Below are positions 54 to 59,164 of a stretch of 64,000 nt of DNA, one piece after another. Each line of letters begins with the position of its first letter. The stretch's first letter is position 1. A program made the position numbers and the translations under genes. A model generated the notes under the pieces. It was not told the origin of the DNA, did not search any database, and saw only the letters and a program-made list of their open reading frames with translations. The stretch is from an uncultured virus (IMG/VR IMGVR_UViG_3300021958_000055) (taxonomy: Duplodnaviria; Heunggongvirae; Uroviricota; Caudoviricetes): IMG/VR virus record IMGVR_UViG_3300021958_000055; one strand, 5' to 3'.

Positions 54-734
54 ATGACAGATAAAATAAATTATAAATTATTTAAGCCGTTTGGTTCTAC
101 TTTGGCTAAAGCTGAACTACCTTTAGAATTAGTTAAAGATTTTAAACAAGATTTAAAAAACATTAGGTCCGATGAGAAGAAAAAAAAGGAGCACCAATGG
201 GGTGATAAATTAGTTGGTCATGTACATGAAGAATATCTTATATCGCCTGAAGTAATGCTAAAATGGAAAAGAGCCTTTTTTGATCCGATTATAGCTTCTT
301 ATACTAATGCTCATTATAAATCTGAAAAGGTCCAAAAAATTTTAATTAATAGTGCTTGGTTTGTTGTATCTAAACCTGGAGATTTTAACCCTTGCCATAG
401 ACATACTGAATATGTGAGAGGTAATTATCATTTATCGGCTGCAGGTTGGTTGCAGATCCCTAGTTCAATTAATCCTACTAAGAATGCTAAACCTTTTAAT
501 GACTTTTCCGGTGAAACAGAATTTATTGAAGGTTCGGAAGGGATGTTTACAGATACTAATTACAGGATTTCACCTAAAGACATGGAGAGAACTTTTGTGC
601 TCTTTCCTAATAACTTAACGCATACTGTATATCCTTTTGATTCACCTAATAAAGATGATGAAAGAATTAGTTTTTCTTTTAATGCAACTATTATGTTTGA
701 TTTAGGTAATAAACAAGAGAAACCAACTCAATAA
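54..734 (+). CDS. putative 2OG-Fe(II) oxygenase
   Basis: DFNPCHRH ... FPNNLTHTVYPF ... ERISFSFN: metal-binding His residues and RxS motif of marine-phage 2OG-Fe(II) oxygenases. Confidence 0.8.
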   Translation: MTDKINYKLFKPFGSTLAKAELPLELVKDFKQDLKNIRSDEKKKKEHQWGDKLVGHVHEEYLISPEVMLKWKRAFFDPIIASYTNAHYKSEKVQKILINSAWFVVSKPGDFNPCHRHTEYVRGNYHLSAAGWLQIPSSINPTKNAKPFNDFSGETEFIEGSEGMFTDTNYRISPKDMERTFVLFPNNLTHTVYPFDSPNKDDERISFSFNATIMFDLGNKQEKPTQ

Positions 735-749
735 CAATAAATAATTCTA

Positions 750-935
750 TCAATTTCTAAAATTTCCTTTCCTTCTTTGTATAGCTATTGCCATTCTGCC
801 TATAGCTATATTTTTTGCTGTTTCAATAAATCTTTTAACATTTGGGTCATTACAATAGTCGCCATAACTAATCTTCTCTTTTACTTCATTTGGCAAACTA
901 TCGTACTCTGCTCTTAATGTGGTTGTCAGTTTCAT
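750..935 (-). CDS. hypothetical protein (likely start MKLTT)
   Basis: ORF track 750..974; the internal ATG is the more plausible start. Confidence 0.45.
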   Translation of the reverse strand: MKLTTTLRAEYDSLPNEVKEKISYGDYCNDPNVKRFIETAKNIAIGRMAIAIQRRKGNFRN

Positions 936-1008
936 ATAGCTAAAATAACATAAGTTAAGTAACCCAAGACACAAACAATAAGCATTATATCAAATAATAT
1001 ATCTTCGT

Positions 1009-1254
1009 TCATATTTTTCTTTCTGTTATTGTTAAATCTAATGAATCTACAATAAAAGTTCCGTAAGTTTTATGTTTAAACTCCCAAAACTCTAAATCTA
1101 TTTGTTCATCATAGAAATCTTCAGACAAGTGTTTATTATATAAAGTTAAAGTTTTAGGTGCTTTAATATTATCAGAAAAAAGTTTGCCATTAACTTCCTT
1201 TACTCTTGATAGATTTGCACCTTTTTTAATTTTATAAATGGTTTGATTTATCAT
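1009..1254 (-). CDS. hypothetical early protein
   Basis: ORF abutting its neighbour in a minus-strand run. Confidence 0.6.
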   Translation of the reverse strand: MINQTIYKIKKGANLSRVKEVNGKLFSDNIKAPKTLTLYNKHLSEDFYDEQIDLEFWEFKHKTYGTFIVDSLDLTITERKI

Positions 1255-1539
1255 TTAATACTCCCTTATTATTTTCCTTTCTTTTTTGTTTTCACTTAAA
1301 TATTCTTTATGATCTTTCATAAAGCTATTATCTTTATCTGTATATTCAGCATTAATTTGAATACTAGCACCATTTAAGCAAATTGGATTTTCTTTACTTA
1401 ATTCAGCAGTTAAACAAAACTTAGCTTTTGGTAATATTCCATAATAAATGTGAATATGGTCTTTAAAAATATAAAGTAATTGCTCCATATTTTCTAAAGT
1501 TAGTTTTTTTGCTACTTTTATAACTTCATTTCTTTTCAT
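1255..1539 (-). CDS. hypothetical early protein
   Basis: ORF with GGGGGAG SD, overlapping the upstream stop. Confidence 0.6.
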   Translation of the reverse strand: MKRNEVIKVAKKLTLENMEQLLYIFKDHIHIYYGILPKAKFCLTAELSKENPICLNGASIQINAEYTDKDNSFMKDHKEYLSENKKERKIIREY

Positions 1540-1727
1540 ATTGCTCCCCCTTTTATTTTTTTTATAATATCAACATCTACATTATGTATTTCTGCTAATC
1601 TTTCATAATTATCATTATTACTATTGTAGATTGCTTTTATGATTTTACCACTTAATGAAATTTTATTTTTAGCATCAAAATATATAATTTCATTTAGATT
1701 TATATTTTTTGGTTTCGCTGTAATCAT
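1536..1727 (-). CDS. hypothetical early protein (likely start MITAK)
   Basis: SD GAAAGGGGGAG precedes an internal ATG of ORF 1536..1820. Confidence 0.5.
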   Translation of the reverse strand: MITAKPKNINLNEIIYFDAKNKISLSGKIIKAIYNSNNDNYERLAEIHNVDVDIIKKIKGGAI

Positions 1728-1838
1728 ATTACTCCCCCTTTCATTTCTATTATTAGTTGCTCTATTTGTGGTGCATATTGCAACACACAAAATAGAAAGT
1801 ACATAATCATTATAAGACAAGCAAAGTTTAATAGTTCT

Positions 1839-2069
1839 TTAATTGTTTGCATCTTTATTACCTCCTCTAAAACCAAATGTTTTTTCTTCATTTTTTTCTA
1901 GTTTTTTAATAAAGCTATCAATTTTTTTTTGGTCTAATGTAATGTCATATTTAGAGTAACTATTAACCCTATCAATTACAACTTCACTACAAGGATTTGA
2001 TTTATACTTTTGAGATAGCATAGTAACCATTTCGCTTATAATAGCTAAATCATATTTATTTATTTTCAT
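1839..2069 (-). CDS. hypothetical early protein
   Basis: ORF with SD AGGGGGAATA. Confidence 0.6.
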   Translation of the reverse strand: MKINKYDLAIISEMVTMLSQKYKSNPCSEVVIDRVNSYSKYDITLDQKKIDSFIKKLEKNEEKTFGFRGGNKDANN

Positions 2070-2077
2070 TATTCCCC

Positions 2078-2431
2078 CTATTTATAATATATTTCTAAAT
2101 TAACATTATTATTATTATCATCAGCAGTAACAACTTTTACTTTATTTAAAGTAAATTTTTTAATCCAATTAATAAAATTACTAATATCTTTTGTATTAGC
2201 TTTTTCATTAAATTGGACATTTTGTTGATACTTCATATTTTTATAATAATATCCGTCTAATGGTTGTAGTGTAGCTTTTCCATTAATTTCATTATCAATA
2301 TATTGATTAATAAATTCATAACAAAATTCGGCATCTTTAAGTTTCTTATAAGTTTTTTTATTAGACTCATAAGACATACTTAGACTAATCATATCTTTTA
2401 CAGACATATTAGGATGATTAATTATTTTCAT
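2078..2431 (-). CDS. hypothetical early protein downstream of the hammerhead ribozyme
   Basis: ORF with SD GAAAGGAAG. Confidence 0.65.
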   Translation of the reverse strand: MKIINHPNMSVKDMISLSMSYESNKKTYKKLKDAEFCYEFINQYIDNEINGKATLQPLDGYYYKNMKYQQNVQFNEKANTKDISNFINWIKKFTLNKVKVVTADDNNNNVNLEIYYK

Positions 2432-2454
2432 TGTCTTCCTTTCGTTTTGTTTCT

Positions 2455-2508
2455 GACCTCATCAGCGTTGTAATTAACAACGGACACCCTAAAAAGGGTG
2501 TTTCGGTC
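2455..2508 (-). ncRNA. type II hammerhead ribozyme
   Basis: Minus strand GACC-GAAA-CACCCT-TTTT-AGGGTG-TC-CGTTGT-TAATT-ACAACG-CTGATGA-GGTC: intact CUGAUGA and GAAA core, three closing stems, GUC cleavage triplet; intergenic. Confidence 0.92.
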
Positions 2509-2509
2509 T

Positions 2510-2995
2510 TTAAGCAACCTTTTTTTCTTGTTGTTCTTGGTATAATTCCCAATTAACCAAAGATACATAATCAAGGTTTGCAAGATATTTTATATCCTCA
2601 TCAAGCCAAGCCTTTCTAATTTTATCGCCATAATTCTCAACGATTGCTTGAGCATATAAACAAGATTTTCTAATATTTAATAAATCTTTTATTTTCCATT
2701 TTTCTATAGTTAAAAGATTTTGTGCAATATGTTTAACTGTAAACATTTTGGCACAATCATTAATTGATGCTGAATCTTTGTGATATTCAGACCAATCCCC
2801 AACCCTATGCTGTTTTTCATCTTTTCTATTCATTTTAAATAAATCATCTCTATATGGTGTCCAAGTGATATTGCTTAAAACATATAATTTAGAAAATGCT
2901 TTATTTATTCTTTTTACTATTTCTTTTTGCTCTTTGTTCATTGTCTCCCTTTTGTTTATATTAACTTGATTTGCTTTCATACTTATCTTGTACAC
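2510..2995 (-). CDS. hypothetical early protein (start probably MNKEQ near 2941)
   Basis: 161-aa ORF; SD AAAGGGAG precedes the internal ATG. Confidence 0.65.
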   Translation of the reverse strand: MYKISMKANQVNINKRETMNKEQKEIVKRINKAFSKLYVLSNITWTPYRDDLFKMNRKDEKQHRVGDWSEYHKDSASINDCAKMFTVKHIAQNLLTIEKWKIKDLLNIRKSCLYAQAIVENYGDKIRKAWLDEDIKYLANLDYVSLVNWELYQEQQEKKVA

Positions 2996-3043
2996 TATTT
3001 GTATTGTATTGCAAGAAATATTATTATTTTTATTAAGGTATTT

Positions 3044-3058
3044 GTTCTGCTTTTGTTC
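3044..3058. promoter_or_regulatory. alphaproteobacterial-type LexA (SOS) box GTTC-N7-GTTC
   Basis: GTTCTGCTTTTGTTC in the divergent control region. Confidence 0.55.
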
Positions 3059-3079
3059 CAGGTAAATTAGGGGGTTGAT

Positions 3080-3475
3080 TACCCAAAATTTGTGTATATA
3101 AGGTCAATCAGGGATATGAAGAAAAAGGGTTTTACAATAATACCTAATCAAGTCATTTGGGATGATGATTTATGTAATGATAGTAAACATCTATTTACTT
3201 ACATAAAATCATTATCTGAGAAATATAGAACATTAAGAAATACAACCTTGATGGCTAAACTAAATATCTCTATTAATACACTTCAGAAATGTAAAAGAGA
3301 ATTAGTAAAAAATGGCTATCTTGTTATCCACAGAAGAACCTCTGCTAATCTCTATGAGCTAAGACTACCCAAAAAAAGGGTAACCCCCCTATCAAATTCT
3401 ACGCAACTGACTAACCAAAATTTGGGTAGTATTAAGAAGAGTAATACTAACTTATATAATACTAATATATATAAG
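3080..3475. other. candidate replication origin: three 17-bp palindromic sites followed by an AT-rich tract
   Basis: TACCCAAAATTTGTGTA 3080-3096, TACCCAAAAAAAGGGTA 3366-3382, TAACCAAAATTTGGGTA 3412-3428, then an AT-rich run. Confidence 0.55.
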
Positions 3476-3511
3476 AAAGGTTTTAAGGGTTTAAAAAAAT
3501 TTGATGAATAA
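3116..3511 (+). CDS. helix-turn-helix replication initiator-like protein
   Basis: GFTIIPN ... L..KL.IS.NT..K...ELV..GYL, typical of phage replisome-organiser N-termini; ATG at 3116 follows AGGGA. Confidence 0.6.
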   Translation: MKKKGFTIIPNQVIWDDDLCNDSKHLFTYIKSLSEKYRTLRNTTLMAKLNISINTLQKCKRELVKNGYLVIHRRTSANLYELRLPKKRVTPLSNSTQLTNQNLGSIKKSNTNLYNTNIYKKGFKGLKKFDE

Positions 3512-3809
3512 GTTAAATTCAACTCCCCCCTTGCCTTACACTTATAAAGGTAAACCATTACAAAAGATAAGAGGTAACAATTACACAAAAGAGGAAAAGA
3601 TTGAATTGATACAGCAGTTATGGAATGATTATTATGGGGGAATGATTAAGGCACAAGTTCTAACTAACATTGTATTAGACAACTTATATCCCTCATATAC
3701 TGCTCAGCTTATTTTAAATGATATGATGGAGAAAGGGATCTTAAAAAAAAATCCATTCACATTAACAGACAAACCTATTTTCAAGAAAAAGGGTCTTTTT
3801 GATTGGTAA
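3501..3809 (+). CDS. hypothetical protein
   Basis: ORF overlapping the initiator gene end. Confidence 0.55.
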   Translation: MMNKLNSTPPLPYTYKGKPLQKIRGNNYTKEEKIELIQQLWNDYYGGMIKAQVLTNIVLDNLYPSYTAQLILNDMMEKGILKKNPFTLTDKPIFKKKGLFDW

Positions 3810-3878
3810 ACTACATATAGTATGATATAGGAAATTATGCACTATAAACCCTTTATAGGCATTTTATGTTGCAACATC

Positions 3879-3917
3879 GGTGTAGGCGCTACTTATTCCC
3901 TTTCTTAGCGCCTCACC
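3879..3917. ncRNA. GC-rich hairpin with an anti-SD-like loop (candidate sRNA or leader element)
   Basis: GGTGtAGGCGCTA / TAGCGCCTCACC stem, loop CTTATTCCCTTTCT. Confidence 0.45.
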
Positions 3918-3961
3918 AACTATCTATGACAGTTTAAAGGGTACTTTTGAAAGGATTTGAT

Positions 3962-4387
3962 ATGGCTGGAAGACCTAGAAAACTTACAAAGAAATTAACG
4001 GATCTAATTATAGATTATTTAAGTGATGGTTTAACCATTCGCCAGGTATTTGAAAAACCTGAAATAGATTACACTTGGACTTCATTTAGAAAAGAATTAG
4101 TGGCAGACTCAGACTTGATGGATCGTTATCAGAAAGCAAAAGAATTAGCGATTGATCTAGAGCTCTCAAACTTGAAAGATAAAAGATTAGAACTAGAGGC
4201 AAAGATTGAGTCAGGAGACATAGACGGCAAAGCCGGACAGAATTTAGTAAACCTTTACAAGATTATAGTGGCATCTAGTCAATGGTCTGCTAGTAAATTG
4301 TCATCAAAACGATACGGAAAAGCTGCAGAACTGACAATAAAAGGCGATAAGGAACAACCATTGTCAATTTCTTGGCAGACAGAATAA
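3962..4387 (+). CDS. terS: terminase small subunit (Sf6/P22-like HTH type), phage A
   Basis: MAGRPRKL ... G.TIRQ ... L.DRYQKAKE ... W.ASKL..KRYG pattern; upstream of TerL. Confidence 0.75.
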   Translation: MAGRPRKLTKKLTDLIIDYLSDGLTIRQVFEKPEIDYTWTSFRKELVADSDLMDRYQKAKELAIDLELSNLKDKRLELEAKIESGDIDGKAGQNLVNLYKIIVASSQWSASKLSSKRYGKAAELTIKGDKEQPLSISWQTE

Positions 4388-4660
4388 GCTAGAAGTGTTG
4401 ATTTTATTAGATGTGTTGCATTTCTTGCACAGATAAAACACAAAAGTTATATGTGATTAGAACAAAACAGCAACAAAACTATTAGTAGTGATAACATTTA
4501 TTATCATTAATGAAATTTCCTATAACGTTAAGTTATCGGAACTATTGTTTTAGTGGTTTTCCAGGAGTTAAACACAAGATATGGGGGTTTTGTTTTGGGG
4601 TACACCCATTTTTTGTTGTTGTCGTTAGATAAATATTGATACAAGGTATAAACAAACAAA

Positions 4661-4846
4661 ATGGATAATTACATATTGAAAACAATCATATTTATTACGA
4701 AAGACAAAAGAACTAATAAACCTGTTGTCATTACACAATGGAATGGTTTTGAAACTGAACAAGAAGCTCTTGACTTTTCAAACTATTTAAAAGAAATGAC
4801 ATTAGATGAGATGCTTGAAGAAAATCCAAAAGACACAATTCATTAA
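4661..4846 (+). CDS. hypothetical protein
   Basis: 61-aa ORF in the packaging operon. Confidence 0.55.
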   Translation: MDNYILKTIIFITKDKRTNKPVVITQWNGFETEQEALDFSNYLKEMTLDEMLEENPKDTIH

Positions 4847-5615
4847 GGGGGGTTTTGTTTGTCAAAAAATAAATTGATAATGGGAGATTGCTTAGACGAA
4901 CTTCCTAAAATTTTTGATAAAAATATTGATTTAGTCCTGACCGATCCACCTTATGGAACGACACAATGTAAGTGGGATAGTATAATTCCATTTGAGCCAA
5001 TGTGGAAAGAACTTAAAAGAATTATTAAAGATAATGGCTGTATAGCTTTGTTTGGTAGCGAACCTTTTAGTAGTAATCTTAGAATTTCTAATATTAAAAA
5101 TTATAAATATGATTGGATATGGCAAAAAGATAATGGAACAGGATTTGCTAATGCAAAAAAACAACCATTAAGAAAATATGAAAATATATCTATCTTTTAC
5201 AACAAAAGATCAATTTATAATCCACAAATGCGAATTGGTAAACCTTATAAAATTAAAAGTGGTAAAAGAAACAAAGGTACAGAAACTTTATCAGGAAAAA
5301 AATTACAAAAAAACAATAAATCAAATATAGCTTCTTATTATAGATCAGAAAATTATAACAATGGTACAAGATACCCAATAAATATAATAGATTTTAAAAG
5401 AGAAAGAGGATTACACCCAACTCAAAAACCAGTAGCTTTACTTGAATATCTAATAAAAACCTATACTAATGAAAATGATACTGTATTAGATTTTACAATG
5501 GGTTCAGGTTCTACTGGTGTTGCTTGTAAAAACCTTAATAGAAAGTTCATAGGTATTGAAAAAGATGAGAAATATTTTGATATTGCCAAACAAAGAATTG
5601 AGGGGGGTTTTGTTT
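4846..5615 (+). repeat. 15-bp direct repeat AGGGGGGTTTTGTTT flanking the methyltransferase
   Basis: copies at 4846-4860 and 5601-5615; partial third copy at 4583-4596. Confidence 0.85.
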
Positions 5616-5623
5616 TAAAATGA
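4859..5623 (+). CDS. N6-adenine/N4-cytosine DNA methyltransferase (beta class), orphan
   Basis: TDPPY catalytic motif, HPTQKP, and DFTMGSGSTG SAM-binding motif in beta order. Confidence 0.92.
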   Translation: MSKNKLIMGDCLDELPKIFDKNIDLVLTDPPYGTTQCKWDSIIPFEPMWKELKRIIKDNGCIALFGSEPFSSNLRISNIKNYKYDWIWQKDNGTGFANAKKQPLRKYENISIFYNKRSIYNPQMRIGKPYKIKSGKRNKGTETLSGKKLQKNNKSNIASYYRSENYNNGTRYPINIIDFKRERGLHPTQKPVALLEYLIKTYTNENDTVLDFTMGSGSTGVACKNLNRKFIGIEKDEKYFDIAKQRIEGGFVLK

Positions 5624-13314: not shown

Positions 13315-14781
13315 ATGCAATTACCTTTTGGCGAATGGCTACCGGATCAACCTGAATATTTAAATCCTGGTGCTACTACAGCAAACAATGTTTATTATGC
13401 ACAAAATTCTTATAAAAGATTTCCTTCATTAGTAAATTATTCTACAAACAATATTGCTGCAGATAGCAGAGGTGCTGGTTCATTTAGAGATAATTCAGGT
13501 AATGTATTTAACTTTGTTGCAAAAAACACAGACATTTATCAATTAGATGGCGGAACATTTACCTCAAGAAAAGGATCTCTTACAGGCACAAATACAGACT
13601 ACTGGACATTCACACAATTTGGTAATTACATCATAGCAAGTAATGGTGTTGATGCACCTCAATATTATTTAATGGGTACATCAACTAATTTTGCTAATCT
13701 TTCAGCAATAGCAACATCAGGAAGTGTACCAACATTTAGAGTTTCAGGTGTGGTTAGAGATTTTTTAATAACAGGTAATCAACCTACAAATCAAAATAGA
13801 ATACAATGGTCAGGTATTAATGATATTGCTACTTGGGAATCAGGAACTAAACAAGCTGATCAACAAGATCTTCCAGGATCAGGTGGTGAAATTGTTCACA
13901 TAACTTCAGGTGAGATTGGTTATGTATTTAGACAAAATCAAATCATTCGTATGGACTATGTGGGTGGTGCAACAATATTTAGACTGTCAGTTATATCTCC
14001 AAACAGAGGTGCTGTTTATGGAAGAACAGTTTGCCAAGATAATAGAAGAGTATTTTTCTATGCTGATGATGGTTTCTTTGAAATCAATGGTGATAATGTT
14101 ATTGCGATAGGTGCTGAGAAAATAAACAGATTCTTTGATGTAGATTTAAACAAAGCCTTTTCTGATAGAATATGTGCTGCTGTAGATCCATTTAACCAAT
14201 TAGCTTTATGGTTATATCCTTCAGCATCTAATACATCTAATACTACAGGTATTTGCGATAAAATATTAATCTATAATTATGCTACACAAAAATGGTCAAC
14301 GGCTGATGCTAGTGCTAGTACCATATTTTCACAGTTCGTAGGTGCATATACTGTAGAACTTATGGATATTATCTCAGAAAATTTAGACCAAATAAATATA
14401 GCTTTAGACACAGATTTTTGGAGTGGAGGTCAAAGATATTTAGGAGCTATAGATAATAATTATAAAGCGGCTATATTTTCAGGAACAGAAAATGAAGGAA
14501 CTATAGAAACTAGAGAATTAGAGTTGTTTCCAGGACATAGAAGTAGTATAACGAATATAAGACCAATAGTTGATGCTACTGCAACTGTAATAATTAAAAG
14601 TAAAGAAAAACTATCTGATACTGAAACAGTTTCAACATCTTCAAGCATGGTAACAAGTGGTGATAATCCAGTAAGACAATCTGGTAGGTATTTTAGAATA
14701 CAAGTTACTACACCAAGCGGAACAGCTTGGACTCATGCACAAGGAGTTGATTTAAAAGCATCAAGAATAGGTTTAAGATGA
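13315..14781 (+). CDS. tail nozzle / DNA stabilisation protein (P22 gp10-like position)
   Basis: 488 aa, beta-rich, after the adaptor; paralog at 51615. Confidence 0.65.
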   Translation: MQLPFGEWLPDQPEYLNPGATTANNVYYAQNSYKRFPSLVNYSTNNIAADSRGAGSFRDNSGNVFNFVAKNTDIYQLDGGTFTSRKGSLTGTNTDYWTFTQFGNYIIASNGVDAPQYYLMGTSTNFANLSAIATSGSVPTFRVSGVVRDFLITGNQPTNQNRIQWSGINDIATWESGTKQADQQDLPGSGGEIVHITSGEIGYVFRQNQIIRMDYVGGATIFRLSVISPNRGAVYGRTVCQDNRRVFFYADDGFFEINGDNVIAIGAEKINRFFDVDLNKAFSDRICAAVDPFNQLALWLYPSASNTSNTTGICDKILIYNYATQKWSTADASASTIFSQFVGAYTVELMDIISENLDQINIALDTDFWSGGQRYLGAIDNNYKAAIFSGTENEGTIETRELELFPGHRSSITNIRPIVDATATVIIKSKEKLSDTETVSTSSSMVTSGDNPVRQSGRYFRIQVTTPSGTAWTHAQGVDLKASRIGLR

Positions 14782-14927
14782 CGGACAAAACTGATATAGA
14801 TAATGTTAGATATAGTTTTGAAACTCAAGAGTTTTTTCAAAGACAAATTGAAGAAGCAATAAACACATTAATTAACGAAAAGAACAAAGAAAATAATAAA
14901 GTCTTTGCATGGTTTATAGGAGATTAA
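14778..14927 (+). CDS. 49-aa conserved protein (not in the ORF track)
   Basis: MTDKTDIDNVRYSFETQEFFQRQIEEAIN..., homologous to 53160..53309. Confidence 0.75.
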   Translation: MTDKTDIDNVRYSFETQEFFQRQIEEAINTLINEKNKENNKVFAWFIGD

Positions 14928-16559
14928 ATGCCAACTAATATTAAAGATTATTCAACAACCCAAGCAAGCAACACATCACTAAATAGTATTTCAGTAGCAG
15001 AAGGAATGTTACCTTCTAATCTTAACAATGCCATTAGAGCATTGATGAAGAACACTAGAGATTGGTTCAATGATGCACAATGGATTGAGTATGGAGATGG
15101 TGATGCTACATACACAGCAGCTTATGTAAGTGGAACTTCATTTACAATTAATGGTGCAGATGTTACTTCAATTTATCATGCAGGTAGAAGAATTAAAATT
15201 ACAGATACAGCTGCAACACTTTACGGAACTATTGCTAGTTCATCATTTTCTACAAACACAACAGTTACTGTAACTTGGGATGCAGGTTCTTTAACATCAG
15301 GTGCATTAAATAATGTTTACATTGGTGCATTATCAAAAACAAATGATTCTATTCCGACAGGAATATCTGCTGAAAAAATTGCAAACGGAACTATATCAGA
15401 TACAGAGTTTCAATATTTAAATGGAGTAACATCAGCAATACAAACTCAATTAGATGCAAAAGCAGGAGCTATAACTGGTGGTGCATCAACAATAGCTACA
15501 TCAGACTTAACTGCATCAAGAGCTTTAGTTTCAAATTCATCAGGCAAAGTTGCAGTATCATCTGTAACATCAACTGAACTTGGTTATGTTTCAGGTGTTT
15601 CTTCTGCAATACAAACACAGTTAGATGCAAAAAATGTAAAAGCAAATAACTTAAGTGATGTTGCTTCAGCTTCAACAGCAAGAACAAACTTAGGTTTAGC
15701 TATAGGAAGTGATGTTCAAGCATATGATGCACAGTTAGCTGATATTGCAGGATTAACTCCAACAGACAGTAATTTTATTGTAGGAGATGGATCTAATTTT
15801 ACAACAGAAACTGGAGCAACTGCTAGAACTTCTTTAGGACTTGGAACGATTGCAACTCAAGATGCTAATAGTGTTGCTATAACAGGTGGATCAGTAACAG
15901 GTATGTCTGCACCTTCATCAGCATCAGATGTAACAACAAAAAGTTATGTAGATGATTTAGTTGCAGGACTTAAAACTAGAATTATTACAAGAGTAGCAAC
16001 AACAGCAAACGTAAACTTATCAAATGCTTTAGAAAATGGTGATACTTTAGATGGAATTTCACTAGCAACAGGTAATAAAGTTTTAGTTAAAAATCAAACA
16101 GATGCTACAGAAAATGGTATTTATTTAGTTCCAGCAAGTGGTGCAGCAAGTAGAGATCCAGATTTTAATACAGTAGATGAATTAGCTGGTCAGCTTGTTA
16201 TCATACAAGAAGGAACAACAAACGAAGATACAATATTTTTATGTACAACAGATACTGGTGGTAGCATTGGTAGTGTAAATATTACATTTACACAAGTACA
16301 ACCTCAGTTTACTGGAACAGTAAGTTCAGTAGCTGTAGCAGACGCAGGATCATCAGAATTTACAGTAACAGGTTCTCCAATAACTACATCAGGAACAATT
16401 AATTTAGCAGTTAATAGTATATCAGCAGCTAAAATTGGTAATGGAGACGTAGATAATACAGAATTAAGTTATGTAAATGGAGTAACTTCAGCAATACAAA
16501 CACAAATAGATAATAAAGCTGGAGCAGGATTTGCGATTGCAATGGCGATAGCATTATAA
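14928..16559 (+). CDS. tail fibre protein
   Basis: T/S/A/G-rich; three TE..Y..GV.SAIQTQ.D.K repeats; ARTNLGL motifs. Confidence 0.75.
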   Translation: MPTNIKDYSTTQASNTSLNSISVAEGMLPSNLNNAIRALMKNTRDWFNDAQWIEYGDGDATYTAAYVSGTSFTINGADVTSIYHAGRRIKITDTAATLYGTIASSSFSTNTTVTVTWDAGSLTSGALNNVYIGALSKTNDSIPTGISAEKIANGTISDTEFQYLNGVTSAIQTQLDAKAGAITGGASTIATSDLTASRALVSNSSGKVAVSSVTSTELGYVSGVSSAIQTQLDAKNVKANNLSDVASASTARTNLGLAIGSDVQAYDAQLADIAGLTPTDSNFIVGDGSNFTTETGATARTSLGLGTIATQDANSVAITGGSVTGMSAPSSASDVTTKSYVDDLVAGLKTRIITRVATTANVNLSNALENGDTLDGISLATGNKVLVKNQTDATENGIYLVPASGAASRDPDFNTVDELAGQLVIIQEGTTNEDTIFLCTTDTGGSIGSVNITFTQVQPQFTGTVSSVAVADAGSSEFTVTGSPITTSGTINLAVNSISAAKIGNGDVDNTELSYVNGVTSAIQTQIDNKAGAGFAIAMAIAL

Positions 16560-16572
16560 TAAAAGGAGTAAT

Positions 16573-16899
16573 ATGGCACAAAACTTTAGACGATACACAA
16601 GCAATGATGTAGGAGCATCAGCTGCAACATTATTCACAGCAAACAGTTATGATACTGTTGTTGGAATATCTGTAGCAAATGTAACAGCATCAGCAGTGAA
16701 CGCATCTGTTTACATTAATGATGCATCAAATGATATTTATCTTATCAAAGATGCACCTATACCTGCTGGTTCAGCTTTACAAGTATTAGATGGTGGAGCT
16801 AAATTTGTAGTTCAATCAGGTGATGCTTTAAAAGTTGTTTCTGATACAGCATCTTCATTAGATGTTTGGGTATCAACAGTAGACGATATTAGTTCATAA
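16573..16899 (+). CDS. tail-associated structural protein
   Basis: 108 aa, identical to 54956..55282. Confidence 0.7.
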   Translation: MAQNFRRYTSNDVGASAATLFTANSYDTVVGISVANVTASAVNASVYINDASNDIYLIKDAPIPAGSALQVLDGGAKFVVQSGDALKVVSDTASSLDVWVSTVDDISS

Positions 16900-16911
16900 G
16901 GAGAATAACAA

Positions 16912-17643
16912 ATGGGATATGTAGGTAAAAAACCAACAGCAGCACCTTTAACTTCAAGTGATGTTACAGATGGAATTATATCTAATGCAAAATTAGCACA
17001 AGATATTATTTCTGCTGAAACTGCTTTAACTTCTGAACCAGCTGATACAGATGAGTTTATTTTATCTGATGCTGGAACTTTAAAAAGAATTGATTACAGT
17101 TTAATTAAAGGTGGTGGAGGATTAGTTCCTTTATCACACACAACTATTTCAAGTTCTACAGCCAGTGCTGCATTTACTTCAGGCATTGATAGCACTTATG
17201 ATGCTTATAAATTTGTTCTTTCAGGTGTAAGACCTGTAACAGATGACGTAGATTTTCATTTATTATTTTCGGTTGATGGTGGATCAAGTTATCTTAGTAG
17301 TAGTTATAAGTATTCAGTAACATCAAGAGATTCAGGTACAAATGTAGAAGATGGAAGCAGTGATACTGCTAGTTTTATATTACTTACAGGTGATGATGTT
17401 GGAAGTGAATCTGATGAAAGTTTTAATGCAGAAATGGTTTTATATCATCCATCAAATACTACTTTTCATAAGCAAATAGCTTTTCAAGGTGTTTATTACG
17501 ATCATGCTGCTTTACCTAATTACTTTTTAGGAATGGGAGCAAATTCAGGTTCTGTTGCGGCAGTAAATGGTATTAAATTTCAATTTGCTAGTGGCAATAT
17601 AGCAGAAGGTAGTTTTACAATGTACGGAATAGCAAAAGCATAG
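16912..17643 (+). CDS. tail fibre tip/adhesin family paralog 1
   Basis: C-terminal FTSGIDSTY..Y.F ... AV.GI.F....GNI..G...MYG domain shared with the next four genes. Confidence 0.65.
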   Translation: MGYVGKKPTAAPLTSSDVTDGIISNAKLAQDIISAETALTSEPADTDEFILSDAGTLKRIDYSLIKGGGGLVPLSHTTISSSTASAAFTSGIDSTYDAYKFVLSGVRPVTDDVDFHLLFSVDGGSSYLSSSYKYSVTSRDSGTNVEDGSSDTASFILLTGDDVGSESDESFNAEMVLYHPSNTTFHKQIAFQGVYYDHAALPNYFLGMGANSGSVAAVNGIKFQFASGNIAEGSFTMYGIAKA

Positions 17644-17653
17644 GAGATAAATT

Positions 17654-18634
17654 ATGGCATATATAGGTAGAGAACCAACAATAGGAAACTTTCAAGTCTG
17701 CGATGCTATTAGTGTAGTTAATGGTCAAGCTGCATATACGATGCAAGTATCATCTGTAAATGTAGTACCTGAAACAGCTAACCACATGATCGTATCTTTA
17801 AATGGTGTTATTCAAGCACCTGGTAGTTCTTATACTGTATCAGGTTCAACGATTACATTTGCATCGAACCTTGTAACAGGTGATGTTATAGACTTTATTC
17901 ATATACTAGGATCAGTTCTTGATCTTGGTGTACCAAGCGATGACACAGTAACAGCAGCTAAAATATCTTCTAATGCTGTGACAGGTGCTAAATTAAATAC
18001 AGATGTTATATCAGCTCAAACTGCTTTGGCTACTGCACCTGATGATACTGATGAGTTTTTAGTTAGTGATGCTGGGGTTTTAAAAAGAATTGACTATTCA
18101 CTTATTAAAGGTGGTGGACAATGGGAATTTATTTCTGAACTAACAGGTTCTTCATCAACTTCGACACTAGATTTTACAACCTTATCTACTGACTATAAAG
18201 ATTTTTGTTTTTCAATGCAAAATCTGCATCCTGAAAGTGATAATGTAAGAGTATATATGAGAGTATTTACTGGTACTGGTGGATCACAGGCAATTGATAG
18301 TGGTGGTAATTACGGATATGCTGGAATAGTAAGATTTGATAGCACAACCACAGGTAATGGTGAATCACAAAATCAAATATATATTACTGACCTAGTAGGA
18401 AATGCCGATACGGAAAATGCTGCAGGAGAAGTTTTTTTATACAATCCACATGAAACAACATTTCATAAACTTATAAAATCACATTCTGTTACTATGAGAA
18501 ATGATAGTGTTGTTGGTATTGGTAATTACGCTGGTAAATATAGTAATACTGGAGCAGTTACTGGTGTAAGATTTTATTTTTCTGCTGGTGAAATAAGTGG
18601 CAAAATAGCAATGTACGGCAGAAAACGATCATAG
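17654..18634 (+). CDS. tail fibre tip/adhesin family paralog 2
   Basis: LNGVIQ.P...YTVSGSTITF module, DTDEF..SDAG.LKRIDYSLIKGGG linker, shared C-terminal domain. Confidence 0.65.
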   Translation: MAYIGREPTIGNFQVCDAISVVNGQAAYTMQVSSVNVVPETANHMIVSLNGVIQAPGSSYTVSGSTITFASNLVTGDVIDFIHILGSVLDLGVPSDDTVTAAKISSNAVTGAKLNTDVISAQTALATAPDDTDEFLVSDAGVLKRIDYSLIKGGGQWEFISELTGSSSTSTLDFTTLSTDYKDFCFSMQNLHPESDNVRVYMRVFTGTGGSQAIDSGGNYGYAGIVRFDSTTTGNGESQNQIYITDLVGNADTENAAGEVFLYNPHETTFHKLIKSHSVTMRNDSVVGIGNYAGKYSNTGAVTGVRFYFSAGEISGKIAMYGRKRS

Positions 18635-18644
18635 GAGATAAATT

Positions 18645-19250
18645 ATGGCTCTTAACTTTGCTAACAACAATTCCTTATCTTCAATTACAGAAATACCATC
18701 AGGTATTAGTGGTGGTGGATTAAATTTAATATCTACACAGACAGCTAGTAGTAGTTCAACAATAGATTTTACTAGCGGTATAGATAGCACTTATAAAGAA
18801 TATATTTTTAAGTTTTATAATGTTCATCCTGATGGCGGAACTGGTAGACACTTTAGTTTTCAAGGTAGCACAGATGGTGGAAGTTCTTATGGAGTAAATA
18901 TTACTTCAACATTCTTTCAAGCAGATCATAATGAAGCAGATACAACAGCAAATTTAACTTATGAAGGTGGTAAAGATTTAGCACAATCAACTAGCTTTCA
19001 AAGAGTTTTAAGTAGTATTACAGCAAACGCTGATGATAGTGGTAGCGGAACTTTACACATCTTTGAACCATCTAGCGACACTTTTGTGAAGCACTTTATT
19101 GCTACAGGAACTTTAGTTGCTGATGCTTATGTTAATGCAAATTATGTTGCTGGTTATTTTAATACAACAAGTGCTATTGATGCCATACAATTTAAGTTTG
19201 ATTCAGGAAATATTGAAAGTGGAGTTATAAAATTATATGGCGTTAGTTAA
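18645..19250 (+). CDS. tail fibre tip/adhesin family paralog 3
   Basis: shared domain; positional homolog at 57027. Confidence 0.65.
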   Translation: MALNFANNNSLSSITEIPSGISGGGLNLISTQTASSSSTIDFTSGIDSTYKEYIFKFYNVHPDGGTGRHFSFQGSTDGGSSYGVNITSTFFQADHNEADTTANLTYEGGKDLAQSTSFQRVLSSITANADDSGSGTLHIFEPSSDTFVKHFIATGTLVADAYVNANYVAGYFNTTSAIDAIQFKFDSGNIESGVIKLYGVS

Positions 19251-19854
19251 ATACAATAACAATTCAATTTCAAGTGTAACTGCTTTAGATAGCTTACCAG
19301 CTGGTGGTTTGAATTTACTTGCCACAAACAATATTACATCAGGAGTAGCTTCATCTTCTTTTACTTCTAATATTGATAGCACATACGATACTTATATTTT
19401 TAAGTTTATTAATATGCACCCAGCGACACAGGCTGCTGAGTTTCAATTTCAGGTAAATGCAAGTGGTCAAACTGGCTTTAACGAAACAATGACAACTACT
19501 CTTTTTCAAACATATCATTATGAAGATAGTTCATATACTTCTTTAAACTATAGAACTTCACACGATCAAGCACAAGGAACAGCATATCAATCTATTAGTG
19601 ATGATATTACAAATGATAATGATGGTTCTTGTTCAGGTTATTTATATTTATTTTCGCCAAGTTCGACAACTTTTGTGAAACATTTTATATCAAGAGTTAA
19701 TACTCATGGACATGACACAACAAGATTTACAGATACTAAATTTTGTGCTGGATATATAAATACTACGTCTGCTATTGATGAAATAAGTTATCAAATGTCT
19801 ACAGGAAACATAGATAATGGTATCATCAAAATGTATGGATTGAGTAAATCATGA
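19237..19854 (+). CDS. tail fibre tip/adhesin family paralog 4
   Basis: shared domain; positional homolog at 57613. Confidence 0.65.
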   Translation: MALVKYNNNSISSVTALDSLPAGGLNLLATNNITSGVASSSFTSNIDSTYDTYIFKFINMHPATQAAEFQFQVNASGQTGFNETMTTTLFQTYHYEDSSYTSLNYRTSHDQAQGTAYQSISDDITNDNDGSCSGYLYLFSPSSTTFVKHFISRVNTHGHDTTRFTDTKFCAGYINTTSAIDEISYQMSTGNIDNGIIKMYGLSKS

Positions 19855-20453
19855 GTATAATTAAATTAAATAATAGAGCAGTAAAAGATGCAACAGCAGT
19901 AGGTAGCATAACAGGACTTGGTAATTTAGTTTTTATATCAAGATCAACTGCTAGTTCATCAGCAAGTTTAAGCATAACATCAGGTATTGATAGTACTTAC
20001 AAAGAATATATATTTGTTTTTAATAATATTCACCCAGCTACTACTGCTAATTTTACATTTCAAGTAAATGCTTCAGGACAAACAGGATTTAATGAAACTA
20101 TGACAACTACAGCATTTAGAGCAACACATTTTGAAAGTGGTGCTAGTGCAAGTCTTGATTATAAAACTAATATAGACCAAGCACAAGGCACATCATATCA
20201 AGTTATGGCAGAACAAATAAGCACTGGAAATGATGAAAGTTGTTCAGGAACACTTCATTTATTTGAACCATCTAGCGACACGTTCGTGAAACATTTTATG
20301 ACAAATTTGAGTGCATATATGGATTCAACAACATCACACAATTATTTTACTGCTGGTTATATAAACACTACATCAGCAATTACAGAAATAGACTTTAAAA
20401 TGAGTACAGGAAATATAGATTCAGGTACAATAGATATGTATGGAGTTAAATAA
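19851..20453 (+). CDS. tail fibre tip/adhesin family paralog 5
   Basis: shared domain; positional homolog at 58229. Confidence 0.65.
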   Translation: MSIIKLNNRAVKDATAVGSITGLGNLVFISRSTASSSASLSITSGIDSTYKEYIFVFNNIHPATTANFTFQVNASGQTGFNETMTTTAFRATHFESGASASLDYKTNIDQAQGTSYQVMAEQISTGNDESCSGTLHLFEPSSDTFVKHFMTNLSAYMDSTTSHNYFTAGYINTTSAITEIDFKMSTGNIDSGTIDMYGVK

Positions 20454-20490
20454 AAAATTATGATACTAACACAAACACAAGGAGAAAAAT

Positions 20491-20787
20491 ATGGCAAGAT
20501 ATAAAATGGTAAATGGAGAAAGAATCCAATTTACAGCAGAAGAAGAAGCAGCTAGAGACGCAGAAGAAGCGGCTTGGACAGCTGGTGCTAAAGATAGATC
20601 AATAGCAAATCTTAGAGCAAAAAGAAATAATTTGCTTAAAGAAACAGATCATTATGGTTTATCTGATATAACTATGTCTGCTGACATGGCAACATACAGA
20701 CAAAATCTTAGAGATTTGCCTGGTACTGTTACTGATGAGAATACTGCTGCTGAAGTTGATGCTATCACATTTCCAACAAAACCTTAA
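20491..20787 (+). CDS. tail fibre assembly chaperone
   Basis: LR.KRN.LL.ETD ... YRQ.LRDLP ... FPTKP motif. Confidence 0.8.
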   Translation: MARYKMVNGERIQFTAEEEAARDAEEAAWTAGAKDRSIANLRAKRNNLLKETDHYGLSDITMSADMATYRQNLRDLPGTVTDENTAAEVDAITFPTKP

Positions 20788-21128
20788 TGGCTAATATATA
20801 TAAAAATGCAATGTTTGATCTTACAACGACAGATAAAACAACTGTATATACCTGTCCTGCTAATAGAACAGCTTTAATAAAAGCAATACAAGTTACTAAT
20901 ATTCATACAGGTTCTGTTGAATTAGAAGCATTTGCTACAGACTCATCTGATTCTGATGCTGAACATGAAATAAGTCACATATTACTTGCATCAAAAACTG
21001 TAGAAAACTTAGTTAAAGGAATAATGGTTTTAGAAGCTGGAGATTCTTTAAAATTAGAAGCTGCATCTGCTAATAATATAGCTGGTATTGTTAGTTATTT
21101 AGAAATATTTGACGAAAAGTCTGCATGA
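20787..21128 (+). CDS. putative structural protein
   Basis: paralog at 59164. Confidence 0.65.
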   Translation: MANIYKNAMFDLTTTDKTTVYTCPANRTALIKAIQVTNIHTGSVELEAFATDSSDSDAEHEISHILLASKTVENLVKGIMVLEAGDSLKLEAASANNIAGIVSYLEIFDEKSA

Positions 21129-53081: not shown

Positions 53082-53170
53082 TGAAATTTATTTTAGGTTT
53101 AATAGAAAAATATTCATCTAAGTTAAATGTTTGGGCTTGGAATAAAAGATGGAATAAACGTGACAGATAG
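53081..53170 (+). CDS. 29-aa Trp-rich micro-protein (not in the ORF track)
   Basis: MKFILGLIEKYSSKLNVWAWNKRWNKRDR; TAATG-coupled; absent from the first module. Confidence 0.5.
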   Translation: MKFILGLIEKYSSKLNVWAWNKRWNKRDR

Positions 53171-53309
53171 AACAGATATAGATAACGTAAGATATAGTTT
53201 TGAGACACAAGAGTTTTTTCAAAGACAAATTGAAGAAGCTATTAACACATTAATTAACGAAAAAAATACAGAAAATAATAAAGCATATGCTTGGTTTATA
53301 GGAGAATAA
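53160..53309 (+). CDS. 49-aa conserved protein (GTG start)
   Basis: homolog of 14778..14927. Confidence 0.75.
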   Translation: MTDRTDIDNVRYSFETQEFFQRQIEEAINTLINEKNTENNKAYAWFIGE

Positions 53310-53310
53310 A

Positions 53311-54942: not shown

Positions 54943-54955
54943 TAAAAGGAGTAAT

Positions 54956-55282
54956 ATGGCACAAAACTTTAGACGATACACAAGCAATGATGTAGGAGCA
55001 TCAGCTGCAACATTATTCACAGCAAACAGTTATGATACTGTTGTTGGAATATCTGTAGCAAATGTAACAGCATCAGCAGTGAACGCATCTGTTTACATTA
55101 ATGATGCATCAAATGATATTTATCTTATCAAAGATGCACCTATACCTGCTGGTTCAGCTTTACAAGTATTAGATGGTGGAGCTAAATTTGTAGTTCAATC
55201 AGGTGATGCTTTAAAAGTTGTTTCTGATACAGCATCTTCATTAGATGTTTGGGTATCAACAGTAGACGATATTAGTTCATAA
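54956..55282 (+). CDS. tail-associated structural protein
   Basis: identical to 16573..16899. Confidence 0.7.
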   Translation: MAQNFRRYTSNDVGASAATLFTANSYDTVVGISVANVTASAVNASVYINDASNDIYLIKDAPIPAGSALQVLDGGAKFVVQSGDALKVVSDTASSLDVWVSTVDDISS

Positions 55283-55294
55283 GGAGAATAACAA

Positions 55295-56026: not shown

Positions 56027-56036
56027 GAGATAAATT

Positions 56037-57017: not shown

Positions 57018-57026
57018 GAGTAATCA

Positions 57027-58227: not shown

Positions 58228-58228
58228 G

Positions 58229-58834: not shown

Positions 58835-58867
58835 TTATGATAATAACAAACCAACAAGGAGAACAAT

Positions 58868-59164
58868 ATGCCTAGATATAAAATGGTAAATGGTGAACGT
58901 ATTCAGTTCACAGCAGAAGAAGAAGCAGCTAGAGATGCTGAAGAAGCAGCTTGGGCTGATGGTGCTAAAGATAGATCAATGGTTAATCTAAGAGCAAAAA
59001 GAAATAATTTGCTTAAAGAAACAGATCACTATGGTTTATCTGATGTAACTATGTCTGCTGATATGGCAACATACAGACAAAATCTTAGAGATTTGCCTGG
59101 TACTGTTACTGATGAAAATACTGCTGCTGAAGTTGATGCTATCACATTTCCAACAAAACCATAA
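58868..59164 (+). CDS. tail fibre assembly chaperone
   Basis: near-identical to 20491..20787. Confidence 0.8.
   Translation: MPRYKMVNGERIQFTAEEEAARDAEEAAWADGAKDRSMVNLRAKRNNLLKETDHYGLSDVTMSADMATYRQNLRDLPGTVTDENTAAEVDAITFPTKP

What the first reader, a model, noticed from the sequence alone, without database searches (positions are those of the whole stretch)
2455..2508. Type II hammerhead ribozyme inside a pelagiphage-like early operon
Seen: the minus strand reads GACC GAAA CACCCT-TTTT-AGGGTG U C CGTTGT-TAATT-ACAACG CUGAUGA GGTC. All core nucleotides are present, with the G10.1-C11.1 and A15.1-U16.1 pairs. It fills the gap between the stop at 2510 and the SD of gene 2078..2431, in the sense of the operon. 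Established: this is the hammerhead consensus, and it cleaves after GUC. Inference: self-cleavage between 2483 and 2482 splits the polycistronic mRNA and gives the downstream genes a 5'-OH leader of ~50 nt, i.e. protein-free mRNA processing. I saw no equivalent in phage B.
Basis: partly seen in the sequence, partly recalled or inferred. Interest (0 to 1): 0.85.

Follow-up and report, generated by a model that had tools for sequence, protein, structure and literature searches.

The report
Hammerhead ribozyme between two phage genes
A 54-base self-cutting RNA (a type II hammerhead ribozyme) sits between two small genes of an uncultured ocean phage and probably cuts their shared messenger RNA in two; it is a new example of something already known from phages.

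Summary
The minus strand of 2455-2508 reads as a complete type II hammerhead with every core nucleotide. It lies between the TAA stop at 2510-2512 and the ATG at 2431. Rfam's Hammerhead_II model matches below its threshold (29.5 bits against 37). A descriptor scan finds 0.01 such motifs per shuffled window.

The element belongs to a large family in uncultured viral contigs. In 105 distinct sequences, 98.5% of stem cells pair and 15 of 17 pairs show changes on both sides.

The family forms a stereotyped cassette of stop codon, ribozyme, A-rich leader with ribosome-binding site, and start codon. Its neighbouring genes are very diverse and mostly of unknown function. Identical ribozymes sit between unrelated genes. 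The loop I to tail pseudoknot usual for type II is not detectable. Phage B has no copy.

Cleavage and its effect on the mRNA are inferred, not shown. That hammerheads flank genes in prophage operons has been in print since 2011 (PMC3088659). Verdict: a genuine hammerhead and a new member of a known kind.

The parts
2510..2995 (-). Upstream gene, 161 aa from GTG 2995 (a public record starts it at residue 6). No known family. It ends in TAA at 2512-2510, one base before the ribozyme.
   Evidence: It is 63% identical to a hypothetical protein of Pelagibacter phage Skadi-11.
2509..2509 (-). A directly 5' of stem II. This position is invariant in the family although neither search pattern fixed it.
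   Evidence: A in 105 of 105 distinct family sequences.
2505..2508 (-). Stem II, 5' strand GACC (C2505 = C11.1).
   Evidence: The family covaries as GAUC/GAUC, GACC/GGUC, GAGC/GCUC and GAAC/GUUC.
2501..2504 (-). Core G12 A13 A14 plus A15.1.
   Evidence: Aligned to the Rfam RF02276 core.
2484..2501 (-). Stem-loop III: A15.1, CACCCT, TTTT, AGGGTG, U16.1 (7 pairs). After cleavage it would be the 3'-terminal hairpin of the upstream RNA.
   Evidence: Six of 7 pairs show changes on both sides in the family.
2482..2483 (-). Predicted cleavage site: C17 (2483) | C1.1 (2482), after the GUC triplet.
   Evidence: Position follows from the hammerhead consensus (established knowledge). Cleavage was not tested here.
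2466..2482 (-). Stem-loop I: 6 bp (CGTTGT/ACAACG) and a 5-nt loop TAATT. Loop position 1 (U2476) is invariant in the family.
   Evidence: Six of 6 pairs show changes on both sides. Loop position 1 is U in 105 of 105.
2459..2465 (-). Core C3 U4 G5 A6 U7 G8 A9 (CUGAUGA).
2455..2458 (-). Stem II, 3' strand GGUC (G2458 = G10.1).
2432..2454 (-). 23-nt A-rich leader of the downstream gene. It starts with the tail AGAAAC (2454-2449) and holds the SD AAGGAAG (2441-2435).
   Evidence: The first tail base is A in 93 of 105. AGAAAC occurs in 27 of 102 sequences of the unbiased scan. The start codon lies 20-27 nt after the ribozyme in most family members.
2078..2431 (-). Downstream gene, 117 aa, no known family.
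750..2069 (-). Five further small same-strand ORFs (76, 94, 94, 81 and 74 aa) without family matches. They form the rest of the presumed operon.
   Evidence: No terminator-like site between 600 and 3300.

Best explanation
Window 2455-2508 (minus strand) encodes a genuine type II hammerhead ribozyme. It lies inside a leftward operon of small genes in an uncultured pelagiphage-like phage. When the operon is transcribed, the 54-nt RNA folds into the three-way junction and cuts itself after C2483. The upstream RNA then ends, one base past the stem III hairpin, in a 2',3'-cyclic phosphate. The downstream RNA starts with a 5'-hydroxyl directly at the stem I hairpin, followed by a 23-nt A-rich leader with the SD and the 117-aa gene. 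The likely effect is to turn one polycistronic transcript into separate, hairpin-capped messages, so that stability and translation of each no longer depend on its neighbour. No host nuclease would be needed. Shown here: the motif, its non-chance nature, family-wide covariation, its sense orientation and its stereotyped placement. Inferred: cleavage in vivo, and all consequences for mRNA stability and translation.
For: The core is complete and the fold matches. It is the best Rfam hit in the region (RF02276, E 2.3e-4). Shuffled windows give 0.01 loose-descriptor hits per window and 0 of 300 strict hits. Ten relatives of the upstream gene keep the gene's 3' end. Five carry a hammerhead right after it. 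Three are identical to the window's copy. Two differ by compensatory changes in all three stems and have GUA in place of GUC. In one of these relatives (L008) a second hammerhead precedes the gene, so the gene is flanked by two. On 105 distinct sequences, 98.5% of cells pair against 63.6% when shuffled. Fifteen of 17 pairs change on both sides. The covariation score is 0.839 against 0.165 shuffled (0 of 500 shuffles reach it) and 0.085-0.133 when partners are slid. Context was measured on 107 copies with at least 330 nt on both sides. Sense-strand frames are longer than antisense frames in 94 (upstream) and 88 (downstream) of the 107. The upstream stop codon ends between -6 and +1 of the ribozyme's first base in 84 of 101 cases. 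The window is the -1 type, which has 17 cases. The downstream start peaks 23-24 nt after the ribozyme, and the window's distance is 23. The predicted cleavage products carry terminal hairpins. Published support: type II hammerheads self-cleave in vitro and hammerheads flank genes in prophages (PMC3088659, passages). Three type II hammerheads cleave in vivo in Desulfovibrio vulgaris (PMC8782182, passages). Processing of polycistronic mRNA has been proposed as the role (PMC6765202, passages).
Against: No cleavage data exist for this sequence. The Rfam score is below the gathering score, and both whole-window Rfam scans listed nothing. In a 121-nt context the hammerhead fold (-21.7 kcal/mol) is 2.3 kcal/mol less stable than a fold that replaces stem II with two small alternative helices, GGUU/GACC and CUGAU/GUCAG. 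The loop I to tail pseudoknot that gives most type II hammerheads fast cleavage at physiological Mg2+ is not detectable. No mutual information links loop and tail. Loop-tail complementarity of at least 4 bp occurs in 36 of 114 sequences, against 38.7 +/- 3.7 with permuted tails. Five of 10 relatives and the isolate Skadi-11 do without the element at this junction, so it is dispensable. Alignment A2 was fitted to the model, and the sequences were fished with patterns that fix the core, so core invariance in the family is partly by construction. My model R1 was seeded with a sequence identical to the window's, so its 75-bit score here is by construction.
Confidence: 0.8

Rival explanations
1. 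The element is mainly a mobile or recombination-linker cassette. An approximately 90-nt unit (stop codon, ribozyme, leader, start codon) spreads between phage genes or serves as shared homology for swapping genes. Its ribozyme activity is secondary or serves the cassette itself.
For: Forty-five pairs of loci carry a letter-identical hammerhead in distinct contexts. In 22 pairs both flanking genes are unrelated by tblastx. In 10 only the downstream gene is homologous, in 6 only the upstream gene, and in 7 both. The 117 contexts fall into 77 upstream and 79 downstream gene clusters. Some contigs carry 2-3 copies within 1-2 kb, partly identical. Around the window's own copy, L003 diverges exactly after the TAA. 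L004 keeps the ribozyme and leader and then diverges after ATGAAAATAA into another gene.
Against: A pure homology linker would not need an intact catalytic core or compensatory stem changes, yet both are maintained. Orientation is almost always sense, and spacing to the start codon is tight, which points to a role in expression. Five longer contigs (27-53 kb) hold one copy each, which is not the pattern of a proliferating element. This reading is compatible with the main one rather than exclusive of it.
Confidence: 0.12
2. The ribozyme is a translation-gated switch. The upstream stop codon abuts or overlaps stem II, so a terminating ribosome unfolds it. Cleavage then happens only on messages whose upstream gene is not being translated, which ties the fate of the downstream message to ribosome traffic.
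For: The stop codon ends between -6 and +1 of the first stem II base in 84 of 101 cases. In 41 of these the G of UAG is the first base of stem II. An alternative fold that disrupts stem II lies within 2.3 kcal/mol.
Against: Tight gene packing is normal in phages and could explain the overlap by itself. The invariant A before stem II would favour UAG or UAA there for structural reasons. Hammerheads usually cleave during transcription, before a ribosome arrives. No data here address timing.
Confidence: 0.06
3. The sequence is a pair of hairpins with another role (host RNase site, protein binding site or transcription pause), and its likeness to a hammerhead is coincidental or vestigial. It would not cleave.
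For: The Rfam score is below threshold. No pseudoknot is detectable. A competing fold exists. Relatives L006 and L007 carry a plain 10-bp hairpin at the same junction.
Against: Thirteen unpaired core nucleotides are exactly as required, which hairpins alone would not demand. The strict descriptor hits 0 of 300 shuffled windows. In the scan that did not fix it, the 5' strand of stem II covaries with the 3' strand. There is no T-run after either hairpin, and no terminator-like site was found.
Confidence: 0.02

Closest known systems
Type II hammerhead ribozymes of bacteria and prophages (Rfam RF02276; Perreault et al. 2011, PMC3088659)
   Same: The catalytic core is identical and the topology is the same permuted one, with stems I and III capped and stem II open. 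It lies between genes of phage origin, in the sense of transcription. Related contigs sometimes hold several copies that flank single genes.
   Different: It scores 29.5 bits against RF02276's gathering score of 37. Twenty loci of the family reach at most 33.4 bits. Stem II is a fixed 4 bp (GANC/GNUC), whereas the Rfam alignment marks 2 paired positions. Stem-loop I is a fixed 6 bp plus 5 nt. The loop I to 3'-tail pseudoknot, reported for most type II examples, is not detectable. Instead three positions outside the core are invariant or nearly so: A before stem II, U at loop I position 1, and A after stem II.
Loop-loop tertiary contacts of type I/III hammerheads (sTRSV, Schistosoma), including an A-U Hoogsteen pair between loop II and stem I (recalled from the literature, not checked here)
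   Same: A conserved U in loop I and conserved A residues at the far end of a 4-bp stem II are what such a contact would need.
   Different: Here stem II has no loop. The A residues are the single-stranded flanks of an open helix. The contact is my inference and was not tested.
RNase III processing sites between the early genes of coliphage T7 (established knowledge, recalled)
   Same: These are intercistronic structured RNAs that cut a phage polycistronic early transcript into separate messages ending in protective hairpins.
   Different: T7 depends on a host enzyme and on long hairpins. Here the RNA would cut itself and leave 5'-OH and 2',3'-cyclic-phosphate ends.
Synthetic ribozyme insulators such as RiboJ (an sTRSV hammerhead placed before a ribosome-binding site; recalled)
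   Same: A hammerhead sits just upstream of the SD. It removes the upstream RNA context and leaves a 5' hairpin on the message.
   Different: RiboJ is engineered, is of another hammerhead type and carries an added hairpin. The element here is natural and abuts the preceding stop codon.

Membership tests
Hammerhead ribozyme class | Conserved core: C3 U4 G5 A6 N7 G8 A9, G12 A13 A14, N15.1-N16.1 (usually A-U), H17 at the cleavage site | tested here: met
   All positions are present, with the cleavage triplet GUC. They align to the Rfam core with posterior marks of 9 or *.
Hammerhead ribozyme class | Three helices around the core, supported by compensatory changes | tested here: met
   The MFE fold of the 54-mer is the three-way junction. 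In 105 distinct relatives, 15 of 17 pairs change on both sides and 98.5% of cells pair. The alignment was fitted to the model.
Hammerhead ribozyme class | Site-specific self-cleavage that gives 2',3'-cyclic phosphate and 5'-OH ends | not testable with these tools
   Only assembled contigs of RNA runs were available, and these cannot show RNA ends.
Type II topology | Stems I and III closed by loops; stem II open, formed by the 5' and 3' ends of the motif | tested here: met
Rfam RF02276 Hammerhead_II | Score at or above the curated gathering score (37 bits) | tested here: not met
   The score is 29.5 bits. Both whole-window scans were empty. Twenty family loci reach at most 33.4 bits. I therefore file it under the hammerhead class, type II, and not as a threshold-passing RF02276 member.
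Pseudoknotted type II hammerheads (Perreault 2011 consensus) | Pseudoknot of at least 4 bp between loop I and the bases just 3' of stem II | tested here: not met
   No mutual information above 0.25 bits links loop I and tail columns. Complementarity of at least 4 bp occurs in 36 of 114 sequences, against 38.7 +/- 3.7 with permuted tails. The paper reports the pseudoknot for a majority of type II examples, not for all.

The most novel reading that the evidence does not exclude
The element represents an undescribed sub-class of type II hammerhead that has no pseudoknot. It would be held in its active shape by an invariant A / U / A triad: the base before stem II, loop I position 1 and the base after stem II. 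It travels among marine phages as a roughly 90-nt plug-in cassette of stop codon, ribozyme, leader with SD, and start codon. Phages would use the cassette to insert or swap accessory genes in an operon while insulating each gene's message from its neighbours, a natural counterpart of synthetic ribozyme insulators.
Probability: 0.3. Interest if true: 0.6.

Novelty: new member of a known kind. Interest (0 to 1): 0.4.

Why it matters
Hammerheads between phage genes have been known since 2011, but their purpose is still open (review PMC6765202, passages read). This family offers unusually clean material for that question. It supplies many natural variants with a fixed architecture. Placement relative to the stop and start codons is stereotyped. 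Close relatives exist with and without the cassette at the same junction. Three conserved positions outside the core could be mutated to test how a type II hammerhead without a pseudoknot reaches its active fold. The work also shows that Rfam's curated threshold misses this whole family (0 of 20 loci pass). Ribozymes in marine phage genomes are therefore probably under-annotated.

Tried and rejected
1. Expression evidence. Only Logan contigs of four metatranscriptome runs were served, each holding 0.05 of the sampled words. Contigs like the upstream gene (2592-2956) lie in three marine RNA runs from two studies. One 382-nt contig (run X2, depth 2.4) begins at window 2478, which is 4 nt 3' of the predicted cut, and runs on into unlike downstream sequence. 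Contigs cannot show RNA ends, and DNA can be present in RNA libraries, so I count none of this as evidence.

2. Whole genome: none is held for this window.

4. Function of the neighbouring genes. Neither the 161-aa nor the 117-aa protein matches PHROGs or Pfam. The 117-aa protein has no tblastn hit in isolate phages. The protein atlas gave only unnamed viral clusters at 0.75-0.76 for one protein and nothing for the other.

5. Promoters: the scan found 16 promoter-like sites against 20.4 expected, which is uninformative.

6. Isolate phages: blastn of the window's hammerhead and of the two commonest variants against 50,697 phage records found nothing at E<=0.01. Short, stem-variable queries make this a weak test.

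7. Cellular genomes. The 17-mer CTGATGAGRTCAGAAAC hit at least 120 stretches in genome contigs, but 0 of the 120 has a hammerhead upstream. These are chance matches, and they serve as a control for the viral scan.

8. The hairpin at the same junction in L006: no Rfam family matched with E below 0.04.

9. A first descriptor regex was faulty. I repeated the count with the function.

Full report
THE OBSERVATION

Read 5' to 3' on the minus strand, the window gives TAA (2512-2510), A (2509), GACC, GAAA, CACCCT-TTTT-AGGGTG, T, C, then CGTTGT-TAATT-ACAACG, CTGATGA and GGTC (2508-2455). The tail AGAAAC follows, then an SD-like AAGGAAG (2441-2435) and the ATG at 2431. Every nucleotide of the hammerhead core is in place: C3-A9 as CUGAUGA, G12 A13 A14, the A15.1-U16.1 pair, C17 and the G10.1-C11.1 pair. 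[quoted passage not shown] The predicted cut lies between 2483 and 2482.

The 54-mer alone folds into exactly this junction (-19.1 kcal/mol, z -3.6). ORFs on the minus strand flank it: 2510-2995 upstream, then 2078-2431 and five more small ORFs downstream.

IS IT MORE THAN CHANCE?

Rfam's curated scan of the whole window found nothing, and a permissive whole-window scan also listed nothing. A scan of 2380-2600 gave Hammerhead_II (RF02276) at 29.5 bits. That is under the gathering score of 37, with E 2.3e-4 for that short stretch. Scaled to 64 kb, this result alone would be marginal.

A descriptor of my own required CUGAUGA, GAAA, UH and three stems. It hit the window once, at this site. It hit 3 times in 300 dinucleotide-shuffled windows. 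With the observed stem lengths it hit 0 times in 300.

RELATIVES

The upstream protein has one isolate relative, a hypothetical protein of Pelagibacter phage Skadi-11 (63% identity). Skadi-11 has only a short SD spacer after that gene and no ribozyme.

In IMG/VR, 11 loci encode relatives of the protein, and 10 of them keep the gene's 3' end. Their downstream sequence falls into three groups:
- Three (L002, L004, L005) carry the window's hammerhead letter for letter.
- Two (L008, L011) carry a variant. Stem II is GAUC/GAUC instead of GACC/GGUC. Stem I is UUGAGG/CCUCAA instead of CGUUGU/ACAACG. Stem III is CACCCCC/GGGGGUG or CACCCUC/GAGGGUG, and the triplet is GUA. The core is untouched.
- Five (L003, L006, L007, L009, L010) have no hammerhead.

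In L008 a second hammerhead also precedes the gene, so the gene is flanked by two.

A LARGE FAMILY

Several contigs hold 2-3 copies within 1-2 kb. The matches give 102 distinct 70-nt contexts. By my reading of the listing, all but four (L038, L072, L079, L106) show the full hammerhead architecture. A strict descriptor counted 122 instances and 66 distinct sequences.

A second scan left the tail, the variable stem II base and the 5' strand of stem II free (CGAAAC, gap, GTC, 17 nt, CTGATGAGNTC). It also hit its limit, at 123 stretches, and 102 distinct sequences passed the strict test. About ten more rows failed, mostly because of one mismatch in stem III.

In that set the unconstrained 5' strand of stem II matches the 3' strand. 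The counts are GAUC/GAUC 53, GACC/GGUC 21, GAGC/GCUC 16, GAAC/GUUC 2 and wobble forms 9. One sequence pairs at only 2 of the 4 positions. The AGAAAC tail occurs in 27 of 102, so it marks a subfamily.

I built a covariance model from 14 equal-length members, one of them identical to the window's copy. It found 119 matches in 100 loci. On the 105 distinct sequences:
- 98.5% of cells form standard pairs, against 63.6% when shuffled.
- 15 of 17 pairs change on both sides.
- The covariation score is 0.839, against 0.165 shuffled (0 of 500 shuffles reach it) and 0.085-0.133 with slid partners.

Two caveats apply. The alignment is fitted to the model, and the search patterns fixed the core.

The same 17-mer searched in cellular genomes gave at least 120 stretches. 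None of the 120 has a hammerhead upstream. This shows what chance matches look like.

Rfam misses the family at its threshold. In 20 family loci the best scores were 33.4, 33.0 and 32.4 bits.

ONLY ONE COPY HERE, NONE IN PHAGE B

With filters off, the model scores 75.4 bits at 2449-2509 and at most 12.1 bits elsewhere in the window. The window holds two related phage genomes. Their structural genes align at 66-86% nucleotide identity. Apart from the terminase large subunit, none of phage A's genes in 54-5623 has a homologue in phage B. Five longer family contigs (27-53 kb) hold one copy each.

ANATOMY OF THE CASSETTE

I measured context on 107 distinct copies with at least 330 nt on both sides.
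- Sense-strand open frames are longer than antisense frames in 94 cases upstream and 88 downstream.
- The upstream stop codon ends between -6 and +1 of the first stem II base in 84 of 101 cases.
- In 41 cases the G of UAG is that first base. In 17 cases, the window among them, one A separates the stop codon from stem II.
- The downstream start codon peaks 23-24 nt after the ribozyme. The window's distance is 23.

Positions outside the core that neither pattern fixed are also conserved. The base before stem II is A in 105 of 105. Loop I position 1 is U in 105 of 105. The first tail base is A in 93 of 105.

The loop I to tail pseudoknot reported for most type II hammerheads (PMC3088659, passages read) is not seen. 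No mutual information links loop and tail. Complementarity shows no excess: 36 of 114 sequences have at least 4 bp, against 38.7 +/- 3.7 with permuted tails. I infer that the A/U/A triad makes a loop-loop-like tertiary contact instead. This rests on recalled structural literature and is untested.

MOSAIC CONTEXT

The 117 distinct contexts fall into 77 upstream and 79 downstream gene clusters. Forty-five pairs share a letter-identical ribozyme. In 22 pairs both flanking genes are unrelated by tblastx. In 10 only the downstream gene is homologous, in 6 only the upstream gene, and in 7 both.

Around the window's own copy, L003 (upstream protein 97% identical) diverges exactly after the TAA. L004 keeps the ribozyme, the leader and ATGAAAATAA and then continues into a different gene.

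I tested 80 of the 146 distinct downstream ORFs against PHROGs. Sixty-two match no family at E<=1e-5. Fourteen match families of unknown function. Two match anti-restriction proteins, one an integrase and one a porphyrin-biosynthesis/ATPase family. An ardA anti-restriction gene next to hammerheads was noted in 2011.

HOW IT MOST LIKELY WORKS

The RNA folds during transcription of the leftward operon and cuts itself after C2483. The upstream product would end in the 7-bp stem III hairpin plus one base with a cyclic phosphate. The downstream product would begin with a 5'-OH directly at the stem I hairpin and would carry an A-rich leader in which the SD is at most weakly paired.

By established knowledge of bacterial mRNA decay, 3' hairpins hinder 3' exonucleases. 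A 5'-OH and a 5' hairpin hinder 5'-end-dependent RNase E. The result would be separately stabilised messages, made without a host nuclease. This works like T7's RNase III sites and like synthetic ribozyme insulators.

Processing of polycistronic mRNA is the role proposed, but not proven, in the literature (PMC3088659; PMC6765202, passages read). In vivo cleavage of other type II hammerheads has been shown in Desulfovibrio vulgaris (PMC8782182, passages read).

EVIDENCE AGAINST, AND OPEN POINTS

- There are no cleavage data for this sequence.
- The RNA evidence available was contigs only and cannot show RNA ends.
- In a 121-nt context the hammerhead fold is 2.3 kcal/mol less stable than a fold that breaks stem II into GGUU/GACC and CUGAU/GUCAG helices. 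The energy model ignores tertiary contacts.
- The element is dispensable, because half of the close relatives lack it.
- 'Early operon' is an inference from small ORFan genes divergent from a DnaD-like replication gene at 3092-3511.

NOVELTY

I searched the paper library four times:
- 'type II hammerhead' + ribozyme + phage
- 'hammerhead ribozyme' + pelagiphage
- 'hammerhead ribozyme' + bacteriophage + polycistronic
- hammerhead + self-cleaving ribozyme + marine virus + metatranscriptome

None of the papers listed reports hammerheads in pelagiphages or this cassette. The one paper that holds both 'hammerhead ribozyme' and 'pelagiphage' is a general perspective, seen only in the listing. The class, the type II topology, the phage intergenic context and the proposed role are all in print. 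I did not open the supplementary alignments of PMC3088659, and they may already list sequences of this subfamily.

Verdict: a genuine hammerhead and a new member of a known kind, with a possibly undescribed pseudoknot-less variant architecture. Interest 0.4.

Noticed in passing
window 1-32000 versus 32000-64000: The window holds two related phage genomes with SU10-like portal and capsid genes. Their structural modules align at 66-86% nucleotide identity (for example B 53161-59495 with A 14779-21118 at 86%). Their small-gene regions are unrelated.
   Followed up: partly
L006:3461-3488 and the same place in L007: At the junction where the window has the hammerhead, two relatives carry a plain 10-bp hairpin (GGACAATCCT ... 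AGGATTGTCC; -16.6 kcal/mol, z -3.2). It has no T-run and no Rfam match. It may be a nuclease site or another processing signal.
   Followed up: partly
window 2453-2465 (minus strand), and family-wide: CUGAU of the core can pair with (A/G)UCAG, formed by the last three bases of stem II plus the tail's AG, to give a 5-bp hairpin with a GAG loop. It appears in the MFE fold of the longer context and of the 3' product. The tail begins with AG in 50 of 105 distinct sequences. It could be an inactive conformer or a lock that forms after cleavage.
   Followed up: partly
L084 (viral contig locus): One family copy reads GACCAAAAC where the others read GACCGAAAC. That is A in place of the essential G12, so it is probably a dead copy.
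   Followed up: no
L060:199-250, L241 and L260: Some copies have 3-4 extra bases (AUC or CAUC) between stem II and an AGAAA(C/A) tail, as if the stem II 3' strand were partly duplicated.
   Followed up: no
window 54-734 (+) and 4859-5623 (+): A 2OG-Fe(II) oxygenase-like gene sits at the left end. An N6/N4 DNA methylase gene lies between the small and large terminase subunit genes.
   Followed up: no
window 2445-2478 (run X2, record 1): A 382-nt metatranscriptome contig of a relative starts 4 nt 3' of the predicted cleavage site and continues into a different downstream sequence. It is a single low-depth contig and no more than a hint.
   Followed up: no
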